Shown: one piece after another, positions 1 through 12,000 of the stretch
Layout: the number at the start of each line of letters is the position of its first letter
Position numbering within the stretch: the first letter of the stretch is position 1
Source: Escherichia coli O157:H7
GTDB taxonomy: Bacteria > Pseudomonadota > Gammaproteobacteria > Enterobacterales > Enterobacteriaceae
Length of the DNA: 64,000 nt
Reading direction: 5' to 3' (one strand)
Assembly: GCF_013167455.1 (NCBI RefSeq)
Contig: NZ_CP038328.1
Position numbers: made by a program

Positions 1-3000
1 TGACCCGTCGTAAGGAGCTTGGTCTGCGTGAAGCACAGCTTGCCCGGCAACAGAAAAATAACGAGCGCGATTTTGAGTTTGCGCAGTCTCAGTTTGAACA
101 TAATAAAAACGTTGATCAGCGGAACTTTGATTACAGAGCCAAAGTTGACGACCGTAATTATGCACTGAAGGAAAGGGAGTTTAACGCTAACCAGAATTAC
201 CGGAATGCGTCACTGGGTATGGAGCAGCAGCGACTCCAGTTGCAGAAATACAACCAGCGACGGCTTGAGTATAACGATATGATTGCCCATAGCCAGCCAC
301 TAATGGAAGCGCTTGGAAAAGCAATTGAGGCTGGCGATCAGGAGGCTGCAACGCGTCTGTTCGGGCAGCTGCCAAAGGGACATCCATTAATTCTTATGTC
401 AAACGAAGGCTATGCAGCGAAAGCGGGTCAGGCCGTGATCAACCTGCAAAAAATCTTTGGTGATAAGCCGGACATGGCGATCGATTCGCTGAATACCCCG
501 GAAAATCTCGATGTGCTTTCCGGCGTGTTTGCCCCGGAACTACAACAGCGTATTGGCATGCCTGATTCAACCGGGGACAAAACGATAAAAGAGGCCAGGA
601 TTGGCAGTATCGTACCAGCGCAGCAGGAAGGGTACGTACTTATTGGCCTTGATCTCACATACAGCGATGGCTCCACCGCGCATAAACCTGTAACAGAATA
701 CGGCAGTGCGCACCCTGATGATCAAACCGTGCTGGCGATACCCGTTGATAAGGCTATCGCTCAGGTCAGGGATCGCAGCAAATTTGCAGAGATATCGAAA
801 AATTATGGTTATTTTATGCCGAAGCAGCAGGGACTTTCTCTGAAAGAGCTTCAGAAGGGGGCCAGCAACGTAGCGGCGGACGCGATCAAGAATGGCGGTA
901 ATGCTCAGGCTGCGGTGGATGAATATTATGCTGCGACTGGTTCACAACCGCATCAACAGAAAATTCAGCAACAAAAACTTCAGCAACAGGTTATCAACTG
1001 GGCGGGAGATGATCCTGATAAGCTGTCATTTGCCAGAAATGTAGCGGCCCGTCAGCCTGAAATGCTGGAACCTCAGAATCAGAAATTGCTGGAGAACGGG
1101 TATGCGAATTTTCTCCGTATTCAAAAGGCCAGGGGGGAACAGGCCAGAGATGAAAGTGCTTCATCTGCATCTCAGTTTATCCGTGGACTGAAACAGAATT
1201 ACGCCCAGTAATTCACGATATTCCATTAATACCATTTCCTGATGCCCGGCCATTGTGCCGGGTTTTTTTATGGAGTCTGTATGGCCTATTCAGAGGAACA
1301 GCGTCCTGAGGCGCAACTCGGTAACCAGAATCGTAACAGCCTGAACATTCAGCAACCCGGCGAAACTGACAGCTATGAAGCATTTTTCTCTGATCCGAAT
1401 CGCTGGAAGGATAACAGTACGTCGTTCAGCCTGGGCGATGTATTGCCAACAATGGGTAAAGGTTTCGCCCAGTCCGTCCGGGGAACAGGGGAAATGGCCC
1501 GTGGACTCGGTGATGCGATGATTCAGAGCCCGGTAAAAACAGGGGCGCGTATTTTAAATGAGTTCAGCCGTATGGGGCTGCCGGGTGTCGCAACTGTGCA
1601 GGATATTTTTGCCGGTGGCAGCAGGGGGGCTGATGAGGTCATCGATACCCTGCCTGATGGCAAAAACGCGGTTACTGATACTGTCGGTAAAGGTCTGAAG
1701 GCAACCGGTAAGGCTGTCAGTGATGGTGCCAAAGCCACTGATGAATGGCTGACCGGTAAGATGTCGCCGGGTGCAGTTCGTGCGCTGAATACGCCGATGA
1801 CCGAAGGCTATAATGATTCTGCGGTCTGGGTGGCGAAGGGTGTAAACCTGATTGGTGCGCTTGTACCTGATATGGTTGCTGGCGGTGTGGCTAGAAAGGT
1901 GGGTGATGTCACACTGCGAAAAATGCTGACCGCCGGGCTGGAGAAAAAATACATCGCGGCAGGGATGCAGCCGGAAAGAGCCACGGCACTGGCAGCAGAA
2001 GCTGTCGATAAAAAAATGCCGGATTTATTCCAGGCGGGCCTGATCACCCATTCCACTGTAAGTGCACAGGGGCAGAGTGCAATGGCGGCAGCAGATGCTG
2101 TTCTTAATGCTGATTACTCTGAGCTGGCGCAGTCACCGAAATTTCAGCAGACGTTTTTGTCCATTGACGCCGACCCGCAGCACGCACAGCTTACTGATCG
2201 CCAGAAAATGGATCTGGCAAAAGAGCGTGTTGCCGATGAGGTGCGCGCGCAGCTGGCAACCGATCCTGAATTGCTGGCTGTGAATGCCATGGCGGCAAAA
2301 CTGGGTGACGCACAACTGTTTAATCTGGTGACACGAGGCACAGCGAAGACCGTTAAAAGCGGCATTGTCAGAAATGCCACGGAACAGGGGGCGATTAATG
2401 CGGCGCAGGGCGGCTATTCACGCTATCAGGAAAACACGGCATTGCGTGAGACCGCCGGAATGGGTGTGTCACCGTGGGAGGGCGTGGCTGACGCAACGAT
2501 CGAAGGTGCAGCCTTTGGTGCTGCGATGGGGGCTCCATTCGGTGCGGTTGCCGGATATCGTGGCAGACGTCAGGCCGCAGAAGAAACCGCCATGCGTGAT
2601 GCTGAAACCGTGCAGCAGGACGACGCAGCCCCGCAACCAGAATCTGTTGATCCGGTGGCGCAGCAGCGTGAATCCATGCAGGGCATGAATCGCGAGCAGC
2701 TTCTGGAGCAGTATGCTGATGCGGATATGGCAACAGAGGGTGACGCATCCGCAGCTCATCGCCGGGAAGCTGCCAGCCAGTTGTTGAATGAACTGGACGA
2801 ACAGACGAAGCGACAGGCTGTGATGAATGAGCTGAAGGCGAAGCCGCGTTCTGAACTGCTTGAGGAATACCGCAGACTCAGCCAGAAAGAGGGGCGCACC
2901 GAGACTGAAGAACAACAGTTTCAGGCAATACGAGAAGTCATTCGCCCACAACAGGAAGTGACGCCGGAAGCACAGTCACAGCCTGAAAATGCGGAGGATG

Positions 3001-9000: not shown

Positions 9001-12000
9001 CGTTTGCGAACCTTGCCATGAATGAAAACTTCATGGGGGCGCAGATTTACCAGGAGAACATGCCGTTTGGTACACCAAAACCTGACAGCCAGCTGGGAAG
9101 ACGTTCAACGCCAGAAGCGTACAAGGCGTTTGCATCCTGGCTGAATGCGTTCTCAGGTGGCAGCCAGTACCGTTCAGGCGCGGTGGATATCACACCGGAA
9201 TCGCTGAAATACTGGGTGGACTATATCTCTGGTGGTACAGGTCGCTTCATTTCCAAAACCACGGATGCGGCGGTGAAATCGCTGAATGGTATTGATATAC
9301 CGGAGCAGCAGGTGCCTTTCCTGGGGAAAATTTCGGGAGAGGTGATGCCGTATGCTGACCAGCAGAAGATGTATGACCGGATGACGGAGGTTGTGCAGTA
9401 CCACGCAGAGCTGAAGAGCCTGAGGGGTTCCGAAAGAACGGCATTCATTGACGAGAACAACGGAAAATTGTCGATGAACGGGCTTATGCAGGATACCCGG
9501 AAGAGACTGAAGGATTTGCGTAAACAGCGTGATGCCATTTATGCCGACAGTACTCTCAGTCTGGCGCAACAGTCGGCGATGGTGAAATCGGTTGAGCGGG
9601 ATATGAAGATTGCCGTGGATCGGTTTAACCGCGAGTACAACAAAAAAGTGGGGGTGGAGTAAGAGAAATTGCCCCGTACTGAAGTGCGGGGCATTCTTAA
9701 CATAATGTGTACATAAGTGAGTACTGTTGTGATGGATGTTTTGGTATTTAATGCATTTAAATCAATGGATTGATATTTATGTTCATTATATCCATTTAAC
9801 TAAGAGGACAATGCGGCATGAGTATACCCGCTAATGGACTGCGGGGTAAGTACGCTGCCGCTCGATTGCTTAAACCCTCGCCATTTATGCCGGGTTTTTA
9901 TCATTTTTCTTAATGTTTTCCGCACGTTCTGCTTTTTGGCGTGCTTCTGCTTTGCGCTTGTTGCTCATGTCGTTACGGATCTGTGCATGACTCATTAACG
10001 CGAAGATAAAGGTGCCGCCGCAGATGTTCCCCGCTAAAGTAGGTAGTGCGAAGGGCCAGATGAAATCGCTCCAGTGCAGCGTACCGTTAAACACCAGATA
10101 GAGGATTTCAACAGAACCGACAACGATGTGAGTGGTGTCACCCAGGGCAATAAGCCAGGTCATCAATATAATCACCACAATCTTTGCCGCACCCGCTGCA
10201 GGAAACATCCATACCATAGTGGCGATCAGCCAGCCGGAAATGATCGCGTTGGCAAACATCTCGCTGGGGGTGTTCTTCATCACATCCATGCCGATTTTGA
10301 CAAATGCATCGCGAGTTTCTTCATTGAAGATTGGCATATATTCAAATGCCCACGCCGCAATACCTGTCCCGAGAATATTACCCAGCAGCACGACGCCCCA
10401 TAACCGCATAAGTAAGCCAACGTTGCTCATTGTCGGTTTTTGCATGACGGGTAGTACCGCAGTCACGGTGTTTTCGGTAAATAATTGCTGGCGGGCCATA
10501 ATGACGATAATAAAACCAAAGGTATAACCGAGATTCTCCAGCAAGAAGCTGCCCGGCACACCTTCCAGTTCGACATGAAATATCCCTTTTGCCAGTAATG
10601 AAGCGCCCATCGACAGACCCGCCGCAATGGCTGACCACAGTAGTGCCATTGCGTCGCGTTCCAGCTCTTTTTCACCATCCTGGCGGATATGCTCATGAAT
10701 TGCCATCGCCCGGGAGGGGAGTCGATCTTCATCTATTTCTATTTTTTTGCCACGCTCTTTTTCTTCGCTCTCAACTTCAATTTCGTCGCTGTGTTGATCA
10801 ATTTTGTCGTTGTCCATGGTCTCTTCTCTTGAATTAGCACGTATAGCTAAAGCGTAGCGGCTTTTTTGCTCGCAACTGGCGGGAGTTACTTTGAAAATGT
10901 AGAAAAGGCCGCGTTTGCCTTTTTCTGTTTCTATAGAATCAAGTAGCCTACAGGGCGGCGATTACCAGGCTATGATCAAATCAGCAAATCAGGGCGTCTG
11001 GACATCAGTTGACGTGCTGTTACAATCGCCCACACCTAAACAGGCGGATACGGTATCGTTCCGTCATGGATGGCAAACTGCATAAGCCATAAAAAAACAG
11101 GGAGACATTTATGAAGCTTCGCCTGTCGGCGCTTGCTCTGGGAACTACGCTTCTGGTGGGGTGTGCGAGTTCCGGTACAGATCAGCAAGGGCGTTCTGAC
11201 CCGTTAGAAGGGTTCAACCGCACCATGTACAACTTTAACTTCAATGTATTAGACCCGTATATTGTTCGACCGGTCGCTGTCGCCTGGCGTGATTATGTTC
11301 CGCAACCGGCGCGTAACGGTTTGAGCAATTTTACCGGCAACCTTGAAGAACCTGCGGTGATGGTTAACTACTTCTTGCAGGGCGACCCTTATCAGGGGAT
11401 GGTCCACTTTACCCGCTTTTTCCTGAACACCATTTTGGGGATGGGCGGCTTTATTGATGTTGCAGGGATGGCGAACCCGAAACTGCAACGGACTGAACCT
11501 CACCGCTTCGGTAGTACGCTTGGTCATTATGGCGTGGGTTATGGCCCGTACGTTCAATTACCGTTCTACGGTAGCTTCACGCTGCGTGATGACGGTGGTG
11601 ATATGGCGGATGGTCTTTACCCGGTTCTTTCCTGGCTGACCTGGCCGATGTCTGTGGGTAAATGGACGCTTGAAGGTATCGAAACCCGCGCACAGCTGCT
11701 GGATTCCGACGGTCTGCTGCGTCAGTCGTCCGATCCTTATATTATGGTGCGCGAAGCGTACTTCCAGCGTCATGATTTCATCGCTAATGGCGGCGAACTC
11801 AAACCGCAGGAAAATCCGAACGCGCAAGCGATTCAGGATGATTTAAAAGATATCGATTCTGAATAAGAAACAAATAAAAAAGGTGAGTCGCAAAACTCAC
11901 CTTTTTTGTTGTTATCCCTCAATTACCACAAGTAAAAGGAGATAAACCGACAATGACCCGGACGTAATTATGTAAAAATACTGATGTTCGTCACTGACTA

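What the first reader, a model, noticed from the sequence alone, without database searches (positions are those of the whole stretch)
1..9700. Apparent compositional discontinuity of the left block
By eye, the 1-9700 block is GC-richer than the flanking core, and the junction segment 9700-9790 is strongly AT-rich. This pattern is typical of horizontally acquired cargo with an att-like boundary. I could not compute exact values.
Basis: inference. Interest (0 to 1): 0.4.

Follow-up and report, generated by a model that had tools for sequence, protein, structure and literature searches.

The report
Prophage end at tRNA gene argW

Summary
GC is 53.6% in 1-9700 and 51.1% in 9900-64000, about 1.1 SD, and 18% of equal-sized core windows are as GC-rich. 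GC3 (0.557 vs 0.556) and synonymous codon usage (p=0.37) do not differ. The block does stand out in tetranucleotide signature (r=0.81; controls 0.91-0.96), in dinucleotide delta*, and in purine loading (56% vs 51%). The AT-rich segment 9701-9790 is real, at 26.7% GC, in the lowest 0.9% of 90-bp windows.

Bases 1-9692 are 99.3% identical to the late region of 933W/VT2-Sakai/phi24B-type short-tailed Stx phages. They hold the 3' part of a 421-aa gene and a 2,793-aa cysteine-free polyvalent virion protein gene (LPD5, LPD1, MuF_C, LPD38). Bases 9693-9785 are the AT-rich attP arm of the phi24B-type integration module. Bases 9786-9810 are the 25-bp core, equal to nt -1 to 24 of argW. Chromosome (yfdC) follows. 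In about 5,000 E. coli genomes without the insert, homology starts at 9783-9786.

The core backbone matches O157:H7 at 100%. argW is a published Stx2a-phage site, and the phi24B Int/attP/attB system has been studied experimentally. This is already known and of low interest. Whether this prophage carries stx cannot be seen from the window.

The parts
1..1211 (+). 3' part (403 codons, frame from base 3) of a 421-aa phage late gene of unknown function. The gene starts about 55 bp left of the window.
   Evidence: Annotated CDS in O157:H7 Z563 at L001 18946-20211. PHROG phrog_601 E=1.9e-199, no Pfam or NCBIfam hit. Homolog of phi24B vb_24B_47 by position.
1281..9662 (+). Giant gene for a 2,793-aa polyvalent virion protein (2,806 aa if the first ATG at 1242 is used). 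The homolog in phi24B is called gp47 in the 2026 cryo-EM preprint and vb_24B_48 in the phi24B genome record.
   Evidence: ORF list. PGAP annotation 'LPD38 domain-containing protein'. Pfam LPD5, LPD1, MuF_C and LPD38. phrog_616 matched end to end. No Cys and no TM-like segment. phi24B gp47 was found in virions by proteomics.
4431..4880 (+). LPD5 domain (aa 1051-1200) of the giant protein.
   Evidence: Pfam PF18799, E=6.5e-45. Iyer et al. 2017 list LPD5 as potentially enzymatic.
4824..5600 (+). Zincin-like region with an HEWFH motif (aa 1284-1288, nt 5130-5144), overlapping LPD1 (aa 1361-1440, nt 5361-5600).
   Evidence: NCBIfam CLCA_X E=9e-44, but 149.8 bits is below the 260-bit cut-off. Pfam LPD1 E=5e-24. 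HExxH motifs at aa 1284 and 1551.
6528..6797 (+). MuF_C domain (aa 1750-1839).
   Evidence: Pfam PF18819, E=1.3e-17.
8706..9323 (+). LPD38 domain (aa 2476-2681), a type found only in phage polyvalent proteins.
   Evidence: Pfam PF18857, E=1.1e-48. Weak PHROG match to 'DarB-like antirestriction' over aa 2351-2681. Iyer et al. 2017.
7304..8428 (+). Mosaic patch inside the giant gene. It holds 49 of the 50 differences from the O157:H7 Z563 argW prophage. In this patch the window follows the VT2-Sakai (wrbA-type) allele as far as about 8000.
   Evidence: Mismatch maps. No complete RefSeq E. coli genome carries this exact mosaic; the best is 98.7% over 6800-10300.
9671..9692 (.). GC-rich hairpin (9-bp stem, TGAA loop) 9 nt after the giant-gene stop codon. 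It marks the end of the late module shared by all 933W-like phages.
   Evidence: RNA fold -22.3 kcal/mol, z=-6.2 on + and -16 kcal/mol, z=-4.8 on -. wrbA-type phages match the window only up to 9692. The consensus scan did not call it a terminator because there is no T-run.
9693..9785 (.). AT-rich attP-derived arm of attR (phi24B-type integration module).
   Evidence: GC 26.9%. Present only in phages that use argW (VT2phi_272, Stx2a_F451, PA2, PA8). Alignable to the phi24B right end. It shares an AATGYGTACATA...GAGTAC motif with the int-side arm.
9786..9810 (-). 25-bp att core, TGTCCTCTTAGTTAAATGGATATAA on the - strand. It equals nt -1 to 24 of argW (5' acceptor strand, D-stem, D-loop), left here as a truncated tRNA fragment.
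   Evidence: Three-way alignment of attR, attL and K-12 attB. Exact coordinates. ARAGORN finds no tRNA in the window. VT2phi_272 has an annotated 25-bp attR at the equivalent place. A 24-bp central crossover site is reported for phi24B (PMC7581858).
9811..9884 (-). Chromosomal yfdC-argW spacer, containing the native upstream region of argW. It is now separated from the intact tRNA gene.
   Evidence: Identical to K-12 apart from 1 base. Promoter function is an inference; the consensus scan found no site.
9885..10817 (-). yfdC, the first core gene flanking the prophage.
   Evidence: Annotation in O157:H7 and K-12.

Best explanation
Window 1-9810 is the right end (attR side) of a lambdoid, short-tailed prophage of the 933W/VT2-Sakai/phi24B group (Sepvirinae). 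It sits in an E. coli O157:H7 chromosome, integrated by a phi24B-type tyrosine integrase into the 5' D-arm part of the tRNA-Arg(CCU) gene argW.

How it works. The phage attP carries a copy of the first 24 nt of argW, flanked by AT-rich arms. Recombination with the chromosomal gene rebuilds an intact argW at attL, next to int and outside the window. It leaves the 24-nt 5' fragment, followed by the AT-rich phage arm, at attR (9693-9810), just 75 bp from yfdC.

Content. Almost all of the block is one late gene for a 2,793-aa, cysteine-free, multidomain polyvalent protein (LPD5, zincin-like/LPD1, MuF_C, LPD38). In the close relative phi24B this protein is packaged in the virion and is proposed to be ejected into the cell with the DNA.

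Composition. The small GC excess comes from a densely coding, charged-residue-rich (high GC1/GC2) gene lying next to an AT-rich stretch of core. The phage's GC3 and codon usage match E. coli. Its foreign origin shows only in oligonucleotide signature and purine loading.

Shown and inferred. Shown here: identity to phages, presence/absence polymorphism, core and arm anatomy, domain content. [quoted passage not shown] Inferred: that this particular copy is intact and excisable, and that the giant protein is ejected.
For: - Phage identity: 186 phage records cover at least 80% of 1-9880 at 90% identity or more. VT2-Sakai matches at 99.3% over 1-9692 and VT2phi_272 at 98.8% over 1-9880, including its annotated attR.
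- Context in O157:H7 Z563: int, early genes, Q, stx2a, lysis genes, terminase, portal, N4-gp56-type capsid, tail genes and the giant ORF, then yfdC. An intact tRNA-Arg(CCT) lies 195 bp from int.
- Core: a 25-bp core is shared by attR, attL and K-12 attB.
- Empty sites: homology starts at window 9783-9786 in a spread sample of the other ~5,000 genomes, always over 'yfdC | tRNA-Arg'.
- Integrase: the Z563 integrase has Arm-DNA-bind_3 plus Phage_integrase domains and is 97% identical to phi24B Int. The phi24B genome ends join up to the same attP.
- Literature on integration: the phi24B primary site is about 250 bp upstream of intS, with a 24-bp crossover site and an attP of 350-427 bp. argW is a standard Stx2a-phage site in O157:H7. 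The published junction primers sit at 9617 and 10059 and span 443 bp, against 442 bp published.
- Host: the core part of the window is 100% identical to O157:H7 genomes.
- Giant protein: domains and virion proteomics of phi24B gp47.
Against: - Only attR lies in the window. attL, int, the regulatory region and any stx genes are outside it, so intactness, inducibility and toxin carriage of this copy are unknown.
- No complete RefSeq genome matches the block exactly. There is a 1.1-kb mosaic patch in the giant gene.
- GC, GC3 and codon usage alone would not identify the block as foreign.
- The ejection role of the giant protein rests on one preprint's inference: the protein is abundant in virions but not seen in the reconstruction.
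Confidence: 0.97

Rival explanations
1. The block belongs to a stx-negative or defective 933W-like prophage remnant at argW, not to an intact Stx-converting phage.
For: The window holds none of int, the regulatory genes or stx. In PMC8309913, argW was occupied by non-Stx2 phages in 24 of 91 typed O157 strains (Table 1 as read). IS629/IS1203 insertions and pseudogenes occur in related prophages. The giant gene carries a recombinant patch.
Against: The closest complete genomes with this junction carry stx2a in a full-length prophage. Both genes visible in the window are uninterrupted. The core is intact.
Confidence: 0.3
2. The block is native core DNA, and its composition merely reflects one unusual giant gene. 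The AT-rich segment is an ordinary intergenic promoter region.
For: GC, GC3 and codon usage are within the core range. 87% of the block is one gene, so the oligonucleotide deviation could be protein-driven.
Against: The block is absent from this site in more than 90% of 5,426 genomes, with a sharp breakpoint inside argW. It is near-identical to free phage genomes. The segment 9693-9785 is phage sequence, not the K-12 spacer.
Confidence: 0.01
3. The block is cargo of a non-phage island (an ICE or pathogenicity island) that uses the tRNA gene.
For: Polyvalent proteins also occur on conjugative elements (Iyer et al. 2017). tRNA genes are common island targets.
Against: [quoted passage not shown] Synteny upstream is terminase, portal, capsid and tail genes. 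191 phage records match the block, while only 4 of 5,771 matching places in E. coli genomes lie on plasmid records.
Confidence: 0.01

Closest known systems
Stx2a prophages integrated at argW in E. coli O157:H7 (VT2phi_272, Stx2a_F451, PA2/PA8, the TW14359 type, UK Z-strains)
   Same: Same insertion site, the same 25-bp core, the same attR arm, and the giant gene as the last gene before attR. Identity is 98.8-99.6% over the block.
   Different: A 1.1-kb patch of the giant gene (7304-8428) follows another allele, VT2-Sakai-like up to about 8000. The window's arm matches the Z563 type (1 SNP) but is diverged from the VT2phi_272/phi24B arm. stx carriage cannot be seen.
Phage phi24B (vB_EcoP_24B) Int/attP/attB recombination system
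   Same: In the Z563 relative, the integrase is 97% identical and the int-side arm 96% identical. The 24-bp crossover sequence is the same, and the giant ORF lies about 100 bp from attP.
   Different: The giant-gene-side arm is clearly diverged. The window's core identity extends one base further (25 bp). The phi24B papers read here describe the site relative to intS and do not mention argW or a tRNA.
VT2-Sakai (Sp5) / 933W late region (wrbA-integrating)
   Same: 99.3% identity over 1-9692, with the same two genes and the same hairpin.
   Different: It has a different integration module. In VT2-Sakai further genes (orf72-75) follow the giant gene before attR, and homology to the window stops at 9692.
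Polyvalent proteins of phages (Iyer, Burroughs, Anand, de Souza, Aravind 2017)
   Same: A very large single polypeptide combining LPD5, LPD1, MuF_C and LPD38 with a zincin-like HExxH region, encoded among virion genes.
   Different: No recognised anti-restriction enzyme domain (methylase, helicase, ART) was detected. About 60% of the protein has no family assignment, and the PDB sequence search found nothing.
Islands using the D-loop / 5' sublocation of an arginine tDNA in Klebsiella (bioRxiv 10.1101/2020.11.02.365908)
   Same: The recombination site covers the 5' acceptor strand, D-stem and D-loop. The element lies upstream of the tRNA gene and supplies its 5' part.
   Different: Different genus and different elements. 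Relatedness of the integrases was not tested.
CPS-53/KplE1 (IntS) prophage at argW
   Same: It uses the same 75-bp tRNA gene as its target.
   Different: It uses the 3' end of argW, the usual arrangement. In O157:H7 Z563 both ends of argW are occupied at once, by an IntS element and by the Stx2a phage.

Membership tests
933W/phi24B-like short-tailed lambdoid (Stx-type) phages, Sepvirinae | Nucleotide identity and synteny of the late region with reference phage genomes | tested here: met
   99.3% to VT2-Sakai over 9,692 bp and 98.8% to VT2phi_272. The gene order 421-aa gene, giant gene, att is the same.
933W/phi24B-like short-tailed lambdoid (Stx-type) phages, Sepvirinae | Carries stx genes downstream of Q (Stx-converting) | not testable with these tools
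   That region lies about 27 kb left of the window start. It is present in the closest relatives at this site, but non-Stx occupants of argW exist.
Site-specific integration by a heterobivalent tyrosine integrase at a tRNA gene | Core sequence identical to part of the tRNA gene at the element/chromosome junction | tested here: met
   The 25-bp core at 9786-9810 equals argW nt -1 to 24.
Site-specific integration by a heterobivalent tyrosine integrase at a tRNA gene | Second copy of the core at the other end, with an intact tRNA and an adjacent integrase | tested here: inconclusive
   This lies outside the window. It is met in the near-identical O157:H7 Z563 prophage: core at L003 11050-11074, tRNA-Arg(CCT) at 10999-11073, and int at 11269 with Arm-DNA-bind_3 plus Phage_integrase domains.
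Site-specific integration by a heterobivalent tyrosine integrase at a tRNA gene | Empty site in other strains, with the breakpoint at the core | tested here: met
   Homology starts at window 9783-9786 in genomes lacking the insert. 208 genomes share the junction.
Site-specific integration by a heterobivalent tyrosine integrase at a tRNA gene | Usual sublocation: the element replaces the 3' part of the tRNA gene (anticodon loop, T-loop or 3' end; Williams 2002, recalled from memory because the paper was not available) | tested here: not met
   The identity block covers the 5' end and D-arm, and the phage supplies the 5' part and the upstream DNA. This is the rarer D-loop/5' arrangement, which has been described for Klebsiella arg tDNA islands.
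Phage polyvalent proteins (Iyer et al. 2017) | Several LPD or effector domains fused in one large polypeptide | tested here: met
   LPD5, LPD1 and LPD38, all far above the Pfam cut-offs.
Phage polyvalent proteins (Iyer et al. 2017) | MuF-type packaging-associated domain | tested here: met
   MuF_C at 64.2 bits against a cut-off of 27.6. The MuF N-terminal domain itself was not detected.
Phage polyvalent proteins (Iyer et al. 2017) | Zn-metallopeptidase domain for self-processing | tested here: inconclusive
   HEWFH at aa 1284 lies inside a CLCA_X match that is below the NCBIfam cut-off (149.8 vs 260 bits). A second HExxH is at aa 1551.
Phage polyvalent proteins (Iyer et al. 2017) | Delivered with the virion into the host cell | not testable with these tools
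   phi24B gp47 was detected in purified virions by mass spectrometry. Ejection is proposed there, not shown. The absence of Cys and of TM segments is compatible with ejection.
Compositionally anomalous genomic island | GC, GC3 or codon usage outside the host range | tested here: not met
   GC is +1.1 SD, GC3 is 0.557 vs 0.556, and codon divergence gives p=0.37.
Compositionally anomalous genomic island | Oligonucleotide signature distinct from the host | tested here: met
   Tetranucleotide r is 0.812 against 0.908 or more in controls. delta* is 52 against 45 or less. Confounded by the block being mostly a single gene.

The most novel reading that the evidence does not exclude
The phage integrates at the 5' D-arm of argW and supplies the gene's first 24 nt together with all upstream DNA. 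In lysogens the AGG-decoding tRNA-Arg(CCU) would therefore be transcribed from phage-borne sequence; a TTGATT-18-TATTAT match lies 39 nt upstream at attL in Z563. The orphaned native argW upstream region (9811-9884) now points into the prophage end, antisense to the giant gene, and meets the hairpin at 9671-9692. If so, lysogeny rewires the supply of a rare-codon tRNA and may produce an antisense transcript over attR. None of the papers read here addresses this.
Probability: 0.2. Interest if true: 0.35.

Novelty: already known. Interest (0 to 1): 0.1.

Why it matters
The finding matters mainly as a calibration case. A medically important prophage, of the family that carries Shiga toxin 2a, sits at a textbook O157:H7 insertion site. 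GC, GC3 and codon-usage tests nevertheless fail to flag it, because these phages are compositionally adapted to E. coli. Only oligonucleotide signature, purine loading and, decisively, comparative genomics reveal it.

For strain typing, the junction at 9617-10059 is the published 'argW occupied' PCR marker. It is associated with clade 8 and with Stx2a phages.

Nothing here changes current understanding of these phages.

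Tried and rejected
- ARAGORN on the window found no tRNA. The argW fragment was recognised only by alignment with K-12.
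- Rfam at gathering thresholds found only three naRNA4/REP copies at 45.4-45.7 kb and nothing near the junction.
- The consensus promoter/terminator scan of 9500-10000 found nothing. The hairpin at 9671-9692 lacks a T-run, so its terminator role is an inference.
- At attL in Z563 the scan gave two promoter-like sites against 0.9 expected by chance. This is weak evidence.
- A PDB sequence search with the giant protein found no match. NCBIfam gave only a sub-threshold CLCA_X hit. Structure prediction and the large protein-database searches were not run, because the identity of the block did not depend on them.
- A search for a complete genome identical to the block found none. The best were 99.6% over 12 kb and 98.7% over 6800-10300. 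ECP19-598 matches the 1-kb junction at 100% but does not match the mosaic patch.
- Williams 2002 and Zhao & Williams 2002, on tRNA sublocations and reversed orientation, are not held in the library. Statements about the 'usual' 3' arrangement therefore rest on memory and on the summary in the Klebsiella preprint.
- One search failed because the query was 1 base too long. One search failed because a locus file was missing. Both were repeated successfully.
- TRF found only a trivial 15-bp, 2.3-copy repeat at 954-988.

Full report
**1. The observation**

The window is 51.4% GC. Bases 1-9700 are 53.57% GC and bases 9900-64000 are 51.05%.
- Against 445 overlapping 9.7-kb windows from the rest (mean 51.5%, SD 1.87), the block lies about 1.1 SD above the mean. 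17.8% of those windows are at least as GC-rich.
- The contrast looks stronger by eye for two reasons. The adjacent 10 kb is only 48.1% GC, because it holds an AT-rich yfdF-like gene. The block is also 97% coding, against 84% for the rest, whose non-coding part is 45% GC.
- The AT-rich segment is real. 9701-9790 is 26.7% GC, and only 0.86% of 90-bp windows are that low. They cluster in six zones, the other five at 12-13.4 kb and 20.1-20.7 kb.

**2.

- GC3 of the giant ORF is 0.557 and pooled core CDS is 0.556. 23 of 48 core genes are at least as high.
- The GC excess sits in codon positions 1 and 2 (0.632 and 0.439, against 0.587 and 0.419). This reflects a protein rich in Arg, Lys, Glu and Ala and poor in Leu, Ile, Phe and Cys.
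- Synonymous-codon divergence from the core pool is no greater for block chunks than for core chunks (medians 0.161 and 0.143, p=0.37).
- The oligonucleotide signature does differ. The tetranucleotide obs/exp correlation with the core is 0.812, against 0.908-0.956 for 45 core controls.
- Size-matched 2.4-kb pieces give 0.66-0.79 against a core median of 0.82 (p=0.005). Karlin's delta* is 52 against 13-45 for controls.
- The coding strand is 56.1% purine, a level reached by 2 of 48 core genes.
- One gene makes up 87% of the block, so these signals are partly protein-specific.

**3. What the block is**

- A megablast of 1-12000 against 5,426 complete E. coli genomes hits 5,425 of them. Only 385 cover at least 80% of the query. 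The features under the match are 'LPD38 domain-containing protein | hypothetical protein | yfdC | mlaA', and the best hits are O157:H7.
- The core part of the window (39001-64000) is 100% identical to many O157:H7 genomes.
- In O157:H7 strain Z563 the matching region is the right end of a complete Stx2a prophage. Its order is tRNA-Arg, int, early genes, cI/cro/cII, replication genes, Q, three tRNAs, stx2A/B, lysis genes, terminase, portal, N4-gp56-type capsid, tail genes, lom, a 421-aa gene and the 2,793-aa gene, followed by yfdC.
- Against the phage collection, 186 records cover at least 80% of 1-9880. wrbA-type phages such as VT2-Sakai match at 99.3% but only up to 9692. Phages that use argW (VT2phi_272, Stx2a_F451, PA2, PA8) match through 9810 or beyond.

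**4. The boundary**

- Aligning the junction with K-12 and with attL of Z563 shows a 25-bp sequence common to all three: TGTCCTCTTAGTTAAATGGATATAA. It lies at 9786-9810 on the minus strand.
[quoted passage not shown] ARAGORN finds no tRNA in the window. It finds an intact tRNA-Arg(CCT) at attL in Z563, 195 bp from the phage int.
- VT2phi_272's depositors annotated a 25-bp attR at the same place.
- In a spread sample of the roughly 5,000 genomes without the insert, homology to 9301-10300 begins at query position 483 or 486, which is window 9783 or 9786, over 'yfdC | tRNA-Arg'. 208 genomes carry the same junction.
- The layout is therefore:
  - 1-9692: late module common to the phage group, ending exactly at a strong hairpin at 9671-9692.
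  - 9693-9785: AT-rich attP arm specific to this integration module.
  - 9786-9810: the core.
  - 9811 onward: chromosome.
- A reconstructed attP has AT-rich arms on both sides (27% and 31% GC). Both arms carry a repeated AATGYGTACATA...GAGTAC motif, a candidate arm-type site.

**5. The recombination system**

- The Z563 integrase has Arm-DNA-bind_3 and Phage_integrase domains. It is 97% identical to phi24B Int.
- The two ends of the phi24B genome record join into the same attP.
- The phi24B system has been studied experimentally. Its primary site is about 250 bp upstream of intS, which fits the K-12 layout, where the 24-nt stretch ends 213 bp before intS.
- It has a 24-bp central crossover site, a minimal attP of 350-427 bp and a minimal attB of 62-93 bp, and it does not need IHF (PMC7581858).
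- argW is one of the four standard Stx-phage sites in O157:H7. It was occupied in 30% of 346 strains and is typical of clade 8 (PMC8309913).
- That paper's junction primers are found at 9617-9638 and 10037-10059. They span 443 bp, against the published 442 bp.

**6. An unusual but known detail**

Most tRNA-targeting elements replace the 3' part of the gene. This one replaces the 5' part, so the phage also supplies the DNA upstream of the intact tRNA. A Klebsiella preprint describes the same D-loop/5' sublocation at an arginine tDNA. In Z563 both ends of argW are used at once, by an IntS element at the 3' end and by the Stx2a phage at the 5' end. Whether argW is then expressed from phage sequence is open. 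Only a consensus-level promoter match exists.

**7. The cargo**

- The giant gene (1281-9662; first ATG at 1242) encodes LPD5 (aa 1051-1200), LPD1 (1361-1440), MuF_C (1750-1839) and LPD38 (2476-2681).
- It has a sub-threshold zincin-like CLCA_X match over aa 1182-1437 that contains HEWFH, and a second HExxH at aa 1551.
- It has no cysteine in 2,793 residues and no TM-like segment. No PDB relative was found by sequence.
- This is the architecture of the phage 'polyvalent proteins' of Iyer et al. 2017, where LPD38 is phage-specific.
- The phi24B homolog (gp47) was found in purified virions by mass spectrometry but not in the cryo-EM reconstruction, and it is proposed to be an ejection protein. 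The lack of Cys is compatible with passage through the tail and periplasm; that is my inference.

**8. Variation**

Compared with Z563, the window differs at 50 positions. 49 of them lie within 7304-8428 and one is at 9736. Compared with VT2-Sakai, it is almost identical up to about 8000 and then diverges. The giant gene is therefore a recombinant between phage lineages. No complete RefSeq genome carries this exact mosaic.

**9. Verdict**

The feature is the attR end of a known phi24B/933W-type prophage at argW in O157:H7, so it is already known and of low interest. Whether this copy is intact or carries stx cannot be decided from the window.

Noticed in passing
window 1281-9659 (protein): The 2,793-aa giant protein contains no cysteine at all and has no hydrophobic TM-like segment (max KD19 1.38). 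It has two HExxH motifs, at aa 1284 (HEWFH) and aa 1551 (HEIIH).
   Followed up: partly
window 7304-8428: There is a mosaic patch inside the giant gene. 49 of the 50 differences from the O157:H7 Z563 argW prophage cluster here, and as far as about 8000 the window follows the VT2-Sakai allele. No complete RefSeq E. coli genome has this exact combination.
   Followed up: partly
window 9671-9692: A strong hairpin (-22.3 kcal/mol, z=-6.2) lies right after the giant-gene stop codon. It coincides exactly with the point where homology to phages with other integration modules ends. It also folds on the opposite strand, facing the orphaned argW upstream region.
   Followed up: partly
window 9786-9884 and L003 10999-11268: Integration is at the 5' D-arm of argW rather than the usual 3' part. 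The phage therefore supplies the tRNA's first 24 nt and its upstream DNA, while the native upstream region stays behind at attR. In Z563 the 3' end of the same tRNA gene is occupied by an IntS (CPS-53-like) element.
   Followed up: partly
window 12261-13292 (-): A yfdF-like gene has very low GC (GC3 0.285; 12001-13000 is 33.7% GC). Relative to K-12 YfdF it carries an internal duplication of about 60-70 residues. It is a much stronger compositional anomaly than the left block.
   Followed up: partly
window 20102-20669 and 25634-27026: There is an AT-rich zone (20001-21000 is 35% GC) upstream of the yfcV fimbrial operon. The last fimbrial genes have low GC3 (0.40). The tetranucleotide signature of 24300-26700 is the most atypical in the core (r=0.653).
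   Followed up: no
window 45405-45657 (+): Three tandem copies of naRNA4 (REP325-type repeat; Rfam RF02564, 72-83 bits) lie here. They probably explain the many scattered BLAST places per genome for 39001-64000.
   Followed up: no
window 59734-63167: Two core genes (59734-61962 + and 61965-63167 -) show the largest synonymous-codon divergence from the window's gene pool (0.39-0.57 bits per codon). Both lie in the stretch where the annotations list pta and ackA, so highly expressed genes with strong codon bias could explain it, but I did not assign gene names to these coordinates.
   Followed up: no
PMC7581858 vs window 9786-9809: The experimental phi24B attB/attP paper never mentions tRNA or argW. 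Its 24-bp crossover site appears to correspond to the first 24 nt of argW: the phi24B record carries that 24-nt stretch at its attP, and the primary site's published position upstream of intS fits. I did not see the paper's core sequence itself. The phage-biology and O157-genomics literatures seem to describe the same site in different terms.
   Followed up: partly
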